A stretch of 64,000 nt of DNA from a virus (IMGVR_UViG_3300001528_000259:32001-96000); one strand, 5' to 3'. Positions 762 to 60,279 are shown, counted from the stretch's first letter. The notes: generated from the letters alone by a model not told the origin. A program made the numbers and translations.

Positions 762-798
762 TATGGTACAATACAAAATGATTAAGGAGAAAAAAGAA

Positions 799-1428
799 AT
801 GAGTTATTGGACGCATATTACAGGCACGATTATTGTATGCCCTATGGGACGCACACAATCAGAAAAAAGATATATCCTTGAAACTGTATTAGATCATTTG
901 CCATTAGTTACGGGCTCCGAGGAAGATATGAACGTTCATATTATTCAAAGAGCAGGATATAATTGTTCTTGCTCTTGTGATGAGTTTGGTATGCAAACTA
1001 ATAAGTTGAAAGATAGTTATGGAAACCGTAACCAAAGATGTGGTTGGTTAGACACACAAGATGAATATATTATAGTTGTTGAGGGAGATTTAAGGGACAG
1101 ATTTCTTAGTGACACATACAAAGAATTTGTCAATTGGTTATGTAGGTTGGCCAAGAGGGTTCTTGTACATAATGTATTGGTAAACATTAACAGTAGTGAT
1201 AATGGTAATCGTATTATTTATGAAGATGGGTATTATAATCCTTATGCAGAGATGTTTGAAGAGCCTTCATGGATAAACGACGGCAATAAGCCTAATTGGT
1301 GTGAGTATCTACTCTGGGATAGAGCTAAAGATAGTGATATGCCAATGATGTTGATGTATAAATATATTGAAGATAAAGAAAACGACGAAGAGGTAAAACG
1401 CAGACTACGTTATGAAGAGGGAGAGTAA
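799..1428 (+). CDS. Hypothetical phage protein
   Basis: ORF with AAGGAG RBS before ATG 799. Confidence 0.75.
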   Translation: MSYWTHITGTIIVCPMGRTQSEKRYILETVLDHLPLVTGSEEDMNVHIIQRAGYNCSCSCDEFGMQTNKLKDSYGNRNQRCGWLDTQDEYIIVVEGDLRDRFLSDTYKEFVNWLCRLAKRVLVHNVLVNINSSDNGNRIIYEDGYYNPYAEMFEEPSWINDGNKPNWCEYLLWDRAKDSDMPMMLMYKYIEDKENDEEVKRRLRYEEGE

Positions 1429-2330
1429 TGATGAAAGATACACAAGGAAAACTCACTTATGACGAATTTATCAATAGCATTCTTAAAACTCGCGGACGTT
1501 TTGCTTGTGGCGAGGAATACCACGAAAGACATCATATTAAGCCTAAGTGTATTGGTGGCTTAGACGAAGAAGATAACTTGATTGATCTGTTTGCAAGGGA
1601 ACATTTTGAAGCGCATCGATTGTTAGCGTTGGAGAATCCAGATAACACGAAATTAGTGTATGCCTGGTATGTTATTACACATTGTAAAAACCAATATCAA
1701 GAAAGATATATGGCCAGTGCAGAAGAATATGACGAAGCAAAGGAAGCGTGGAGCAAACAATACAGCGAATCAATACGTGGTGAAAAACATTGGGATTGTT
1801 CTGGTGCAAATAATCCTAATTATGGGAAGCCAAGATCCGAAGAAACTAAGAAAAAAATTAGTCGGGCTAACACTGGCAAACCAAGCGCAATGAAAGGAAA
1901 ACATCATTCAGAAAATACACGCAAAAATATTAGTATAAAAGCCAAAGAAAGATTAAAAAACAAAGAAAATCATCCGTGGTTTGGTAGAAATCATTCAGAA
2001 GAATCAAAAAAACTACTAAGTGAATTACAAAAAGAAAGATTAAAAAATCCAGAAAACCATCCGATGTATGGCAAACATCTTGCGGAGGAAACAAGGAATA
2101 AATTGCGTGAAAAAGCTAAAGAACGATATAAAGATCCTGCAAATCATCCAAACGCTCGTCGTGTTGTTCGTTTGTCTGATTTGAAAATTTATGGTTATTT
2201 AATGCAAGCGGCACAAGATAATAATATTAGTAGATATACCATGAGAAGATACTGCAAACAACATAAAGATTTTATGTATTATGATGAGTATTTGATTCAA
2301 CAAAATGATTTAAAGGAGGGTGATCAATGA
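1428..2330 (+). CDS. HNH homing endonuclease with NUMOD3 repeats
   Basis: HHIKPKCIGGLDEEDNLIDLFAREHFEAHRLL nuclease motif; repeated HPWFGRNHSEESKK-type NUMOD3 units. Confidence 0.85.
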   Translation: MMKDTQGKLTYDEFINSILKTRGRFACGEEYHERHHIKPKCIGGLDEEDNLIDLFAREHFEAHRLLALENPDNTKLVYAWYVITHCKNQYQERYMASAEEYDEAKEAWSKQYSESIRGEKHWDCSGANNPNYGKPRSEETKKKISRANTGKPSAMKGKHHSENTRKNISIKAKERLKNKENHPWFGRNHSEESKKLLSELQKERLKNPENHPMYGKHLAEETRNKLREKAKERYKDPANHPNARRVVRLSDLKIYGYLMQAAQDNNISRYTMRRYCKQHKDFMYYDEYLIQQNDLKEGDQ

Positions 2331-2695
2331 TGTCATATTCTATCGAATTTCGCGTTCCTGTAAAAGGGCTCGAAGATTACTATATTGATGTAGGGAATTG
2401 CTATGCCAATATTACTTGGAATCTACGCGAGATGATTATGCAGTCTACGGGGCTTGAGTGGAAAAACGAAAAGAACAACGGCTTGTGCAAAGATGTTATT
2501 CCACATATTGCACATGGCTATGCAGAACTTGTACAGAATCCAGAAAAGTATAAGCAGTATGAGGCTGAAAATGGTTGGGGAACGATACAAGGTTGTCGTA
2601 ATTTCTTCCGTCAAATACTGGATGATTGGGATGCGTTCTGTAACGATTATGAGACGAGGGATTTGGTTGATGTAACATATTTTTGGATTTGTTAG
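2327..2695 (+). CDS. Hypothetical phage protein
   Basis: ORF with GGAGG RBS, overlapping the previous stop; NITWNL and ENGWGT motifs. Confidence 0.75.
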   Translation: MMSYSIEFRVPVKGLEDYYIDVGNCYANITWNLREMIMQSTGLEWKNEKNNGLCKDVIPHIAHGYAELVQNPEKYKQYEAENGWGTIQGCRNFFRQILDDWDAFCNDYETRDLVDVTYFWIC

Positions 2696-2728
2696 TTAAC
2701 AATACGAAATGATTAAGGAGAGAAGGAT

Positions 2729-2965
2729 ATGAGTACATTAGGAAAACCAAAATTTACATATAACGATGTGGTTAACTTTGAACTGGAGCACAACGACAAG
2801 ACATACACTTGTGTAGGTAAGGTATATATTGTTGATAAGTGGGGTTGTTGTGGGATTGATGATGAACCTTGTTACGATGTTATGGTTGAGGACTTTTTAG
2901 GCGACGGACAACCATGTTTAGTCAAGCATATCAGAGAGTCAGATGTGAGGACAATTGTTGAGTAA
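2729..2965 (+). CDS. Hypothetical protein (small beta-barrel-like)
   Basis: ORF with AAGGAG RBS. Confidence 0.65.
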   Translation: MSTLGKPKFTYNDVVNFELEHNDKTYTCVGKVYIVDKWGCCGIDDEPCYDVMVEDFLGDGQPCLVKHIRESDVRTIVE

Positions 2966-3044
2966 CATTATGATTAATGTTTACTATTATAGACGAATGA
3001 TATAGTTTGTTTATATATAAAGACATAGAGGGGGTGGTGAGGAT

Positions 3045-58727: not shown

Positions 58728-58737
58728 ATTTCTCACC

Positions 58738-59283
58738 TCACTTTCTTATTGATCTTAAGATTTGTTTTCCAACCGAACGCCTAAAGTTTCGGTCAAATGT
58801 ATAATCATAACTATTAATGAATTTCTGAATTTCTTCTGCTGGCACAAAAGAACCATAATATTTTTGATCCTCATAATTTCCACCGCCGACAATACTACTT
58901 CCGTCTGTGCGAGGATGAATACCAGCAAGAAAGTTTCCAATAATCCACTCTGCATCTGCTGGTGAGTATATTTTTGATCCATAATATGTATTTTCTATTT
59001 TTGACGGATCAAATTCCACACCAGCAGAACAAATTAACGTATCACCATTTTCGCGTACCGGATTTGAATATGGCACAAAACTTTCCATTAAACTGTAAGT
59101 ACGATTATAACTAGTTGGATCATAATCATCATAGTATCGCACCAAACAAGATACAGTATTACTATACAAATCTTTTTCTGCTTGTTTAGTTGCATCCTCT
59201 GCCGCCGTTTTAAATACTTTTTTATAATCTTTTAGCATTTCTTCTGCCGCCTCGTCTATAGCTTGTTCCAAAGTTTTCGCCAT
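58738..59283 (-). CDS. Virion morphogenesis protein (neck/tail-completion-like)
   Basis: YYDDYDP..YNRTY.L motif; upstream of TMP. Confidence 0.6.
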   Translation of the reverse strand: MAKTLEQAIDEAAEEMLKDYKKVFKTAAEDATKQAEKDLYSNTVSCLVRYYDDYDPTSYNRTYSLMESFVPYSNPVRENGDTLICSAGVEFDPSKIENTYYGSKIYSPADAEWIIGNFLAGIHPRTDGSSIVGGGNYEDQKYYGSFVPAEEIQKFINSYDYTFDRNFRRSVGKQILRSIRK

Positions 59284-59305
59284 ACTAACTCCTCCAATTT
59301 ATTAT

Positions 59306-59881
59306 TTACTTTAATTTATCTAAAAGCCCAATTAACTGGGACAAGTCTTCCTTTTGAATATCTGTGCCAAGGACGTCTTTCAGATTAAAATCTTCAAACT
59401 TTTCTTTTAAAACTGAACCAACTCCATCAAGTTTTTTCAGTACGCCATCAAGAAAATGCCCAACAAGCACATTTACATTATTATCTTCAAGCTCAGATGC
59501 TAGTGCCATCTTTAACAAAACATCGCACTCCTCATAATCATTCTGAAATTCTGCAATAATCTGTGCTAATAATCCACTTTCAGCAAGCAAATCATAATCT
59601 ACCACAGGATCTTCGCTCCACTCCAAATTAGTATGTAACGACAGCGTCGCAATAATGAAGCTCAAATATTGCCCAATCTGGTCATTCTTTTTAATGCCAT
59701 CAATCTCACGAATATTCTGGGACACAACCATTTCCATTGCTTGTTTTTTATCTCTAAAAGGCACATACTTTTTTACCTCAAGCTTTTCTGTAATATATTC
59801 ACCAATCGCATTAGGTTCACTCTTTGTATTTATCACATGTGCGTTTTGAAAATCTTTAACAAAATCTTGTATTTTAATCAT
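59306..59881 (-). CDS. Hypothetical protein (possible tail assembly chaperone)
   Basis: VKKYVPF..K motif; position in the tail module. Confidence 0.6.
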   Translation of the reverse strand: MIKIQDFVKDFQNAHVINTKSEPNAIGEYITEKLEVKKYVPFRDKKQAMEMVVSQNIREIDGIKKNDQIGQYLSFIIATLSLHTNLEWSEDPVVDYDLLAESGLLAQIIAEFQNDYEECDVLLKMALASELEDNNVNVLVGHFLDGVLKKLDGVGSVLKEKFEDFNLKDVLGTDIQKEDLSQLIGLLDKLK

Positions 59882-59895
59882 AATAATTTCTCCTT

Positions 59896-60279
59896 TTAAT
59901 CATTTTGATGAGTAATAAACTCATTTATTGCATACATATCTGCCACACTCATTTTTAGTTCTTCCAATTCCTCTAATGTGAATCTCACATTAGGCGGTTC
60001 AATCTCAACATTGTTGAGTTCCTGTAGTGTAGCGTTCGCCTCATCAGTCTTATCGGGTATGATTTTAATCATACCATTATCCGTAATAACAATGTTGCCA
60101 TTGTCATCCTTAATTGAATACGTGTCAATAATTTCCTGTCTTTTAGTATTAAAAAAAATTTCTTCAGTTTCCGAATCCTTACAAAATCTCATAATTTTGT
60201 ACGCAAGTTTAGCAGAGATTTTAGTTTGCGCAAACTGATTAAAAACTTGTATTGCGCCAATAAGTGTACAAATCTTCAT
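59896..60279 (-). CDS. Hypothetical phage protein
   Basis: AAGGAG RBS before ATG 60279 (MKICTL). Confidence 0.65.
   Translation of the reverse strand: MKICTLIGAIQVFNQFAQTKISAKLAYKIMRFCKDSETEEIFFNTKRQEIIDTYSIKDDNGNIVITDNGMIKIIPDKTDEANATLQELNNVEIEPPNVRFTLEELEELKMSVADMYAINEFITHQND

What the first reader, a model, noticed from the sequence alone, without database searches (positions are those of the whole stretch)
774..59907. Genome-wide, transcription-oriented motif CAAAATGATT (stoperator-like regulon)
Seen, exact copies on + in the left arm: 774, 2301, 9574, 10498, 11496, 12290, 16902, 17311, 17762, 20025, 20920, 21358, 26595. Exact copies on - in the right arm: 33549, 33967, 47272, 47384, 47491, 59898. 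One-mismatch copies: 2705, 18483, 44882. A rough estimate from base composition gives under one chance copy, and I saw no exact copy against the direction of transcription. Most copies lie just after +1, inside a -35/-10 spacer, or just before an RBS. The motif even dictates protein ends: unrelated ORFs finish TQQND* or THQND*. Known analogue: the asymmetric, oriented stoperators of mycobacteriophage L5. Inference: one phage factor controls both arms through this site. The two copies inside promoter spacers favour a DNA-level operator over an RNA signal.
Basis: partly seen in the sequence, partly recalled or inferred. Interest (0 to 1): 0.85.

Follow-up and report, generated by a model that had tools for sequence, protein, structure and literature searches.

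The report
Dispersed operator of integrase-fold phage repressor
A one-way 16-base DNA word, repeated about 50 times at promoters and gene junctions of a large uncultured SPbeta-like phage, is most likely the docking site of the phage's integrase-shaped master repressor: a known kind of switch, here in an unusually multiplied, stoperator-like form.

Summary
All 19 exact copies sit at the stated coordinates (0.9 expected by chance). The whole 138.7-kb phage record has 34 exact copies, all co-oriented with transcription and none deep inside a gene.

The 10-mer is the 3' part of a 16-bp asymmetric site, ACAMWA + CAAAATGATT. A weight matrix finds 49 sites, 48 of them co-oriented. The single reversed one is half of an inverted pair in the promoter of a gene outside the window (genome 13644-14588). 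That gene encodes a homologue of MrpR/SroF, the integrase-fold master repressor of Bacillus phage SPbeta, whose operator (SPBRE) occupies the same three kinds of position.

- Twelve of 13 perfect sigma-A-type promoters carry the site at a fixed register.
- Relatives about 72% identical in DNA keep the site.
- More distant repressor homologues go with altered site variants.

That the roughly 20 promoter-less junction sites act as elongation roadblocks is an inference. It is a new variant of a known kind, of moderate interest. Other first-stage readers of this scan noted the same motif in overlapping windows of this genome.

The parts
768..783 (+). 16-bp site; core starts 12 nt after the -10 of a perfect TTGACA-17-TATAAT promoter and ends 15 nt before the ATG
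2295..2310 (+). junction site with no recognisable promoter; lies in the 3' end of the NUMOD3 endonuclease-like ORF, 16 nt before the next ATG
2699..2714 (+). one-mismatch site (18.5 bits) directly before a Shine-Dalgarno sequence
9568..9583 (+). junction site; forms the TQQND* tail of the RecJ-like gene, 14 nt before the C5-methylase ATG
10492..10507 (+). junction site; forms the TQQND* tail of the C5-methylase, 15 nt before the next ATG
11490..11505 (+). promoter-proximal site; core starts 8 nt after the -10 (TTGACA-17-TATTAT), before the N6/N4 methylase gene
12284..12299 (+). junction site; supplies the K* end of the methylase, 12 nt before the next ATG
12680..12695 (+). weak variant (13.3 bits) directly before the Shine-Dalgarno sequence of the DnaE-like polymerase gene
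16896..16911 (+). promoter-proximal site; core starts 7 nt after the -10 of a perfect promoter, 11 nt before the ATG
17305..17320 (+). junction site; gives the SK* end of the upstream ORF, 27 nt before the ATG of the YunG-like gene
17756..17771 (+). site inside a promoter: its first ACA is the ACA of the -35 hexamer, and the core ends 4 nt before the -10. The promoter faces the tRNA region
18477..18492 (+). one-mismatch site (18.5 bits) 12 nt after the -10 of a perfect promoter, upstream of four tRNA genes
20019..20034 (+). promoter-proximal site (15 nt after the -10), 17 nt before the ATG of the amidase/SH3 endolysin-like gene
20914..20929 (+). promoter-proximal site (10 nt after the -10), 14 nt before the ATG
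21352..21367 (+). junction site inside the last codons of the upstream ORF, 21 nt before the next ATG
26589..26604 (+). junction site with no recognisable promoter, 17 nt before the ATG
33549..33564 (-). promoter-proximal site (10 nt after the -10 of a perfect promoter) before the DUF4379/NUMOD1 endonuclease-like gene
33967..33982 (-). junction site; gives the SK* end of the upstream ORF, 17 nt before the ATG
44882..44897 (-). weak one-mismatch variant (12.3 bits) in an intergenic gap just after a hairpin; its status is uncertain
47272..47287 (-). site 11 nt before the ATG of a DUF4379/CapR endonuclease-like gene; third of a cluster of three
47384..47399 (-). site in a non-coding stretch between the two neighbouring sites; kept in relative G001
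47491..47506 (-). site inside a promoter spacer (TTGGCA-17-TATAAT), in the same register as 17762
55442..55457 (-). 15-of-16 match (19.2 bits) deep inside the 1671-aa ORF; the only strong site that is not at a gene boundary
59898..59913 (-). junction site among structural genes; forms the THQND* tail, 16 nt before the next ATG

Best explanation
The 10-mer is the conserved 3' part of a 16-bp asymmetric DNA operator. A monomer of the phage's MrpR/SroF-family repressor binds it. This repressor has a tyrosine-recombinase fold (core-binding plus catalytic-like domains) and is encoded at genome 13644-14588, outside the window, directly after a true tyrosine recombinase gene.

In the lysogen the repressor would sit on three kinds of site:
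(i) Sites that overlap the start point of almost every strong sigma-A promoter (16-mer at about -2 to +14), or that fill the -35/-10 spacer. These block initiation.
(ii) An inverted pair over the -35 and spacer of its own promoter. This gives autoregulation.
(iii) About 20 promoter-less sites placed directly before the ribosome-binding site at gene junctions on both arms. There it would stop RNA polymerase that reads through, as L5 stoperators do.

What is shown here is the motif statistics, the positions, the conservation, the homology and fold of the repressor, and the change of site variant along with repressor divergence. What is inferred is physical binding, the monomer mode (taken from SroF of phi3T) and the roadblock action of class (iii).
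For: Motif statistics: 34 of 34 exact copies and 48 of 49 weight-matrix hits are co-oriented, and none of the 34 is deep inside a gene.

The single reversed hit is half of an inverted pair (core, 5-6 bp, reversed core) that overlaps the -35 and spacer of the promoter of the MrpR-like gene. This arrangement is present in all 14 related loci.

Repressor homology: blastp 7e-8 and phmmer 1e-9 to SPbeta YopR. PDB 8A0A/8BJ6 at 2.7e-7. Pfam MrpR_N_CB at 7.7e-5 and precomputed MrpR_C_cat. In the AF2 model (pLDDT 80), the top Foldseek hits are MrpR, YopR and DNA-bound phi3T SroF at TM 0.63.

The phage is SPbeta-like, with homologues of YonO, YonJ, YorJ/K/L and SprA.

SPBRE in SPbeta is bound by MrpR in ChAP-seq and EMSA (PMC10516654). 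It occupies the same three position classes and is also always co-oriented. SroF binds an asymmetric box as a monomer (bioRxiv 10.1101/2025.11.27.690993).

Promoters: 16 of 20 co-oriented near-consensus promoters carry the site, including 12 of 13 perfect ones. Across five genomes the commonest spacing is 10 nt after the -10 (19 cases), and 8 sites share one identical in-spacer register. The strong promoters without a site include the tubR/tubZ partition promoter, a gene set expected to stay on in a lysogen.

Conservation: relatives are about 72% identical over a quarter of the genome, yet hold 9-43 exact copies each. All 14 G000 sites inside G000-G001 alignments are kept in place.

Covariation: repressor homologues at 48% identity or more go with the same core. 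The 43% homologue goes mainly with a variant ending AATT. The 37% homologue has nine copies ending GAAT and none of ours. The 34% homologue has no dispersed motif.
Against: No binding experiment exists for this phage.

Repressor homology to MrpR is distant (26% identity over the N-terminal 135 residues, and Pfam MrpR_N_CB is below its curated cut-off in my scan).

The site differs from SPBRE in sequence and is 4-5 times more numerous (about 11 sites in SPbeta).

About 20 sites have no recognisable promoter and abut the Shine-Dalgarno sequence. An RNA-level signal would explain that position and the strict polarity just as well.

The covariation rests on a handful of lineages, and any co-inherited phage gene would covary in the same way.

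No AimR homologue was found, so the lysogeny circuit differs from SPbeta (the contig is 83% complete).
Confidence: 0.75

Rival explanations
1. The site is an RNA-level signal in 5' leaders and intercistronic regions. A protein or a nuclease would read the 16-nt word on the mRNA just before the Shine-Dalgarno sequence and control translation, processing or stability.
For: All copies are in the sense strand. In five genomes, 72 of 139 exact sites end 9-24 nt before a start codon with a Shine-Dalgarno sequence. With the commonest promoter spacing, the 16-mer would be the very 5' end of the transcript.
Against: Eight sites in five genomes lie in promoter spacers at one fixed register, so that promoter does not transcribe them. 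The conserved inverted pair in the repressor's promoter has no RNA reading. No anti-sense partner and no Rfam family was found. The exact register to -10 and -35 points to an interplay with bound RNA polymerase.
Confidence: 0.1
2. The site is a signal for the phage's own YonO-like single-chain RNA polymerase (genome 128355-131189): a promoter, a re-start site or a pause site at gene junctions.
For: The phage encodes a YonO homologue (blastp 1e-23). The YonO promoter is undefined in the literature (PMC5467207). The promoter-less junction sites lie in front of genes. Another first-stage note proposed this reading.
Against: Site density is higher in the early/replication arm (21 in 62 kb) than in the structural arm (13 in 76 kb). 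The sites keep fixed registers to sigma-A -35/-10 elements. There is an inverted pair at the repressor promoter. In SPbeta the analogous repeat is bound by MrpR, and no MrpR peak lies at the mapped YonO start upstream of yonK.
Confidence: 0.07
3. The site is bound by another regulator encoded in the window, either the Arc-like RHH at 31996-32202 or the small regulator at 31668-31919.
For: Both are small DNA-binding-type proteins (PHROG hits 3e-8 and 2e-4).
Against: RHH proteins bind tandem or inverted repeats as dimers of dimers, not single 16-bp asymmetric sites. The 83-aa protein sits directly before TubZ, like a TubR centromere-binding protein. Neither gene has the motif in its own promoter, whereas the MrpR-like gene does.
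Confidence: 0.05
4. The site is a replication-, packaging- or recombination-oriented word. It could be Chi/KOPS-like, or a site for the neighbouring true tyrosine recombinase, with an orientation that merely follows the replichore.
For: Transcription arms and GC skew coincide, so polarity alone cannot separate the two. A real tyrosine recombinase is encoded next to the repressor. Ends of alignments between relatives fall near sites more often than near other gene starts.
Against: None of the 34 copies is inside a gene, although 83% of positions are. That pattern is unlike Chi or KOPS. The sites keep a fixed register to promoters and Shine-Dalgarno sequences. Single arms cannot support tyrosine recombination. 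The excess of alignment ends is expected if a conserved word sits next to any mosaic joint.
Confidence: 0.03

Closest known systems
SPBRE operator and the MrpR (YopR) / SroF master repressor of Bacillus phages SPbeta and phi3T (Lazarevic 1999; Kohm 2023, PMC10516654; Chmielowska 2025 preprint)
   Same: The phage encodes a homologous integrase-fold repressor placed directly after a true tyrosine recombinase gene. The operator is asymmetric and A-rich, is dispersed over the genome and is always co-oriented with the downstream gene. It lies in the -35/-10 spacer (sharing the ACA of the -35), near the start point, or right before the Shine-Dalgarno sequence. One site guards the promoter of the YonO-type RNA polymerase operon. 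The two operators share the word AATACAAA and a downstream ATG.
   Different: The sequence and length differ (a 16-bp conserved part against the 22-bp SPBRE and the 26-bp phi3T box). There are about 49 sites against about 11, including about 20 at junctions with no recognisable promoter and several inside the late structural arm. The repressor's own promoter carries an inverted pair. No AimR/AimP homologue was detected. The phage is uncultured and its host is unknown.
Stoperators of mycobacteriophage L5 and other cluster A phages, bound by repressor gp71 (Brown et al. 1997, recalled from memory)
   Same: Dozens of copies of a short asymmetric site lie in short intergenic spaces of both arms, all in one orientation relative to transcription. 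Site variants go with repressor type.
   Different: The presumed binder is an integrase-fold protein, not an HTH repressor, so the likeness is in mode of action and not in descent. Here the sites abut the Shine-Dalgarno sequence and often form the last codons of the upstream gene. Orientation-dependent blocking of elongation is untested.
Core-type sites of tyrosine recombinases (lox, dif, attP core)
   Same: At the repressor's own promoter two arms point at each other across 5-6 bp, like the two arms of a recombinase core site. The binder has the recombinase fold.
   Different: All other sites are single arms. The protein gives no Phage_integrase match, whereas its neighbour does at 4e-38. No sign of strand exchange was seen.

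Membership tests
SPBRE / MrpR(SroF) repressor-operator system of SPbeta-like phages | The phage encodes a homologue of the integrase-fold repressor MrpR/SroF | tested here: met
   blastp 7e-8 and phmmer 1e-9. PDB MrpR/YopR at 2.7e-7. Pfam MrpR_N_CB at 7.7e-5 and MrpR_C_cat. Foldseek top hits are MrpR, YopR and SroF-DNA.
SPBRE / MrpR(SroF) repressor-operator system of SPbeta-like phages | The repressor has lost the recombinase catalytic residues | tested here: inconclusive
   No Phage_integrase match in six-frame or protein scans, whereas the neighbouring gene scores 4e-38. The catalytic positions were not checked residue by residue.
SPBRE / MrpR(SroF) repressor-operator system of SPbeta-like phages | An asymmetric operator is repeated at promoters across the genome, co-oriented with the genes | tested here: met
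   16 of 20 near-consensus promoters carry it at fixed registers. 48 of 49 hits are co-oriented. SPbeta shows the same layout.
SPBRE / MrpR(SroF) repressor-operator system of SPbeta-like phages | The operator has the SPBRE sequence | tested here: not met
   Only a shared 8-mer and a downstream ATG, with different spacing. Operators also differ between SPbeta and phi3T, so this feature defines the SPbeta species and not the family.
SPBRE / MrpR(SroF) repressor-operator system of SPbeta-like phages | The repressor physically binds the repeat (ChAP-seq, EMSA) | not testable with these tools
   Only indirect support: the inverted pair at its own promoter and site variants that go with repressor divergence.
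SPBRE / MrpR(SroF) repressor-operator system of SPbeta-like phages | An arbitrium module (AimR/AimP) is coupled to the repressor operon | tested here: not met
   No AimR hit better than E 0.5 among the 192 called proteins. The contig is estimated 83% complete, so absence is not proven.
Cluster A mycobacteriophage stoperators (L5 gp71) | Twenty or more asymmetric sites in short intergenic spaces of both arms, in one orientation relative to transcription | tested here: met
Cluster A mycobacteriophage stoperators (L5 gp71) | The binder is a gp71-type helix-turn-helix immunity repressor | not tested
   No gp71 query was run. The best candidate binder here has an integrase fold, so descent from the L5 system is not expected.
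Cluster A mycobacteriophage stoperators (L5 gp71) | The bound repressor blocks elongating RNA polymerase in an orientation-dependent way | not testable with these tools
   Inferred only, from about 20 sites with no recognisable promoter and from a hairpin plus site directly after the repressor gene.
Promoter of a phage-encoded RNA polymerase (YonO type) | The site marks starts of late transcripts made by the phage enzyme | not testable with these tools
The distribution favours the early arm and sigma-A registers, which argues against this reading.

The most novel reading that the evidence does not exclude
In this clade of roughly 140-170-kb SPbeta-like phages, the integrase-fold repressor has been multiplied into a genome-wide polar roadblock system. 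Monomers bound to about 20 promoter-less junction sites would stop elongating host (or YonO-type) RNA polymerase in one direction only. That would be an independent invention of the L5 stoperator principle by a dead recombinase. The site has been pressed so hard into gene junctions that it writes the last codons of unrelated proteins.
Probability: 0.35. Interest if true: 0.65.

Novelty: new variant of a known kind. Interest (0 to 1): 0.45.

Why it matters
The finding extends the recently described integrase-fold repressor (MrpR/SroF) beyond cultured Bacillus phages to a large uncultured clade. More than 600 homologues were found, many on 150-170-kb contigs.

It offers a natural series of repressor-operator variants (cores ending GATT, AATT or GAAT). 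These could be used to read out the recognition code of this fold.

If the junction sites are true roadblocks, two unrelated repressor folds have converged on the same polar silencing design. The sites would also be compact, orientation-dependent insulators usable in Firmicutes genetics.

For annotation, the motif marks promoters and gene starts in these phages. It also explains the recurrent QND* and K* protein tails.

Tried and rejected
- Megablast of 13 kb of the window against 50,697 phage records gave no match. tblastn of a tail protein gave only distant hits.
- A scan of 185,579 species genomes for the repressor family found no prophage, so the host stays unknown.
- Rfam at gathering scores found only four tRNAs. 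A permissive Rfam scan of 44800-53800 found nothing, so it gave no support for the group I introns proposed by other notes.
- AimR, YopQ, YosL and YonN homologues were not found by blastp or phmmer.
- A search for a dispersed junction motif in the locus of the 34%-identical repressor homologue found none.
- I tested whether sites mark mosaic joints. Alignment ends lie near sites more often than near other gene starts. The conserved word itself extends alignments up to any nearby joint, so I do not read this as evidence of recombination at the site.
- I rejected a dispersed mobile repeat: outside the 16-mer, the promoter hexamers and the Shine-Dalgarno sequence, the flanks are not alike.

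
Full report
**1. The observation**

The 10-mer CAAAATGATT occurs 19 times in the window, at exactly the coordinates given, against 0.91 expected from shuffles. The window is bases 32001-96000 of a 138,724-bp IMG/VR virus record, estimated 83% complete. 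That record holds 34 exact copies. The same word read backwards occurs once.

Genes run on the + strand up to about 62.35 kb and on the - strand beyond. All 34 copies follow that direction (P about 1e-10). No copy lies more than 30 nt inside a called gene, although 83% of positions do (P about 1e-26).

Aligning the copies shows that the conserved unit is 16 bp long. Six more bases (ACA, then A or C, then A or T, then A) precede the core. A weight matrix of the 16-mer finds 49 hits of 12 bits or more, of which 48 are co-oriented.

The matrix also picks up 12686 and, inside the 1671-aa ORF, 55442.

**2. Where the sites lie**

I scored the five genomes I could read in full or in large part, which hold 139 exact sites.
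- 72 sites end 9-24 nt before a start codon that has a Shine-Dalgarno sequence.
- 55 sites have a sigma-A-type promoter within 60 nt.
- Among those 55, the core starts 10 nt after the -10 in 19 cases and 7-19 nt after it in the other downstream cases. The 16-mer then covers about -2 to +14.
- In 8 cases the site sits in the spacer at one identical register. Its leading ACA is the ACA of the -35 hexamer, and the core ends 4 nt before the -10.

In the genome of the window, 16 of the 20 co-oriented promoters with at most one mismatch to TTGACA-16/18-TATAAT carry the site. That includes 12 of the 13 perfect ones. Of the four without a site, two look like chance matches inside genes. The other two are the promoter before the tubR/tubZ-like partition genes (window 32002) and one before a small HTH-like gene near the contig end.

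About 20 sites in this genome have no recognisable promoter and sit at tight gene junctions. Nine overlap the end of the upstream ORF. The word supplies a stop in two frames, which produces the tails QND* and K*.

**3. What phage this is**

Pfam finds the following in the window:
- a DnaE-type polymerase, a primase and a RecJ-like nuclease;
- two DNA methylases;
- an anaerobic ribonucleotide reductase;
- a large serine recombinase at the junction of the arms;
- TubZ and tail proteins.

A local comparison with Bacillus phage SPbeta finds homologues of YorJ, YorK, YorL, SprA and YonJ. It also finds a homologue of the single-chain RNA polymerase YonO (genome 128355-131189, E 1e-23). The phage is therefore a distant SPbeta-like temperate siphovirus. 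It gave no nucleotide match among 50,697 deposited phages.

**4. The candidate binder**

SPbeta keeps lysogeny through MrpR (YopR, also called SroF). [quoted passage not shown]

Our phage encodes a homologue at genome 13644-14588 (314 aa):
- blastp 7e-8 and phmmer 1e-9 to YopR;
- 2.7e-7 to the solved MrpR/YopR chains;
- Pfam MrpR_N_CB at 7.7e-5 and the precomputed MrpR_C_cat family;
- an AlphaFold model (mean pLDDT 80) whose best Foldseek matches are MrpR, YopR and DNA-bound phi3T SroF (TM 0.63), ahead of true recombinases.

The gene directly upstream is a genuine tyrosine recombinase (Phage_integrase, 4e-38). This matches the yopP-yopR arrangement in SPbeta.

A 2025 preprint reports that SroF binds its long asymmetric box as a monomer that nearly encircles the DNA. 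That fits a single, non-palindromic site.

**5. Links between the protein and the motif**

(a) The only reversed matrix hit in the genome lies in the promoter of the MrpR-like gene. In all 14 related loci fetched through that protein, this promoter carries an inverted pair: core, 5-6 bp, reversed core. The -35 is built at the junction of the pair, and the reversed arm fills the spacer. In the window's own genome the pair is somewhat degenerate. This is an autoregulatory operator that has no RNA-level reading.

(b) I extracted SPBRE from the SPbeta record. It lies in the same three position classes: inside the spacer sharing the ACA of the -35, upstream of or at the start point, and directly before the Shine-Dalgarno sequence. 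All 11 copies are co-oriented with the gene downstream, including the copy at the promoter of the yonP-yonO operon. Our phage likewise has a perfect promoter plus site in front of its YonO-like operon (genome 131982). The two operators share the word AATACAAA and a following ATG, but at different spacing. I count this as a hint of common descent and no more.

(c) Relatives: six IMG/VR contigs hold 10-43 exact copies each. Their strand follows the local gene direction, including a strand switch within contigs. They are only about 72% identical to our genome, over about a quarter of its length. All 14 of our sites that fall inside alignments with the 163-kb relative are kept at the orthologous place. 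At that divergence a neutral 10-mer would survive about 4% of the time.

(d) Covariation: repressor homologues at 48-76% identity go with the same core.
- The 43% homologue goes mainly with a variant whose last four bases are AATT.
- The 37% homologue has nine copies ending GAAT and none of ours, in the same position classes.
- The 34% homologue has no dispersed junction word.

These are a few lineages and not a formal test, but the pattern is what repressor-operator co-evolution predicts.

**6. Mechanism**

I conclude with about 75% confidence that the motif is the DNA operator of the MrpR/SroF-like repressor. Sites at -2 to +14 or in the spacer would shut almost every strong lytic promoter on both arms. 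The inverted pair would limit the repressor's own synthesis. The tubR/tubZ promoter stays free of a site.

The action of the promoter-less junction sites is inferred. The most economical reading is a polar roadblock to read-through transcription, as shown for L5 stoperators (recalled from the literature, not re-read here). A hairpin followed by a site directly after the repressor gene fits that reading (genome 14666-14713).

The tight position before the Shine-Dalgarno sequence may simply reflect that junctions here are only 10-30 nt long. The word can end two reading frames, which lets it invade the upstream gene's last codons.

**7. Rivals**

- An RNA-level leader signal explains the polarity and the closeness to the Shine-Dalgarno sequence. 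It does not explain the in-spacer sites, the inverted pair or the registers to -35 and -10.
- A signal for the YonO-like polymerase, proposed in another first-stage note, is hard to square with the higher density in the early arm and with the sigma-A registers. No RNA data could be obtained to test it.
- A Chi/KOPS-like or recombination word is excluded by the absence of mid-gene copies.
- The two small regulators in the window are less likely binders.

**8. Comparison and novelty**

The system works like SPBRE/MrpR, and by its repressor it belongs to that family. It differs from it in four ways:
- the operator sequence;
- a four- to five-fold higher site number;
- sites at junctions without promoters and inside the structural arm;
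- an inverted pair at the repressor's own promoter.

In site distribution it works like L5 stoperators, but it is not related to them.

The multiplication is lineage-specific, because SPbeta and the 34% homologue's locus lack it. I rate it a new variant of a known kind. It is of moderate interest overall, and of higher interest if the roadblock function is proven.

Other first-stage readers of this scan noted the same motif in overlapping windows of this genome. One of them proposed the SPBRE-like reading, which I had reached independently.

Noticed in passing
window 30638-32202: A TubZ-like tubulin GTPase (30638-31666, -) follows an 83-aa regulator (31668-31919, -), probably a TubR-like partner. 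A near-consensus sigma-A promoter at 32002 lacks the operator. An Arc-like RHH ORF lies on the opposite strand (31996-32202, +). This partition module sits next to a large serine recombinase (28328-30352), which suggests either plasmid-like maintenance or both lifestyles.
   Followed up: partly
window 17753-19521: Four tRNA genes (two Leu, Lys, Gln) lie in a GC-richer stretch. They are downstream of one promoter with the operator in its spacer (17762) and a second promoter with a one-mismatch operator after the -10 (18483). The phage tRNAs therefore appear to belong to the repressed regulon.
   Followed up: partly
window 55442-55457: A 15-of-16 match to the operator lies deep inside the 1671-aa ORF. 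It is the only strong site away from a gene boundary. It may be a relic, a real internal site, or a hint that the ORF is composite.
   Followed up: no
window 44800-53800: Other first-stage notes read the long ORFs here as one tape-measure gene split by two group I introns that carry endonuclease genes. A permissive Rfam scan (E up to 0.1) found no intron family. The three operator copies at 47272-47506, one of them in a promoter spacer, precede the DUF4379/CapR endonuclease-like gene and are kept in relative G001.
   Followed up: partly
window 1428-2330, 15911-16720, 32249-33460, 46349-47260; L009 16698-17819: There are many free-standing homing-endonuclease-like genes (NUMOD3, HNH_3, DUF4379+NUMOD1, DUF4379+CapR, GIY-YIG+NUMOD1). 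Several have their own operator-guarded promoter.
   Followed up: no
L009 13575-13650 and 14660-14713 (genome coordinates, outside the window): The promoter of the MrpR-like gene carries the inverted operator pair. Directly after the gene's stop comes a GC-rich hairpin without a T-run, followed by a single co-oriented operator.
   Followed up: yes
genome 128355-131189 (L012/L013, outside the window): A 944-aa homologue of the single-chain two-barrel RNA polymerase YonO (26% identity over 429 aa). It lies in an operon headed by a perfect sigma-A promoter plus operator at genome 131982.
   Followed up: partly
whole genome against G001, G002, G004: Ends of nucleotide alignments between relatives fall within 40 nt of an operator 13-29% of the time, although only 12.5% of gene starts have one. 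This may mark mosaic joints at the sites, or it may be an alignment artefact of the conserved word.
   Followed up: partly
L172 (locus of the 37%-identical repressor homologue): Nine to ten co-oriented copies of a sister operator, whose core ends GAAT instead of GATT, lie at the same promoter and junction positions. This looks like a separate immunity type of the same system.
   Followed up: partly
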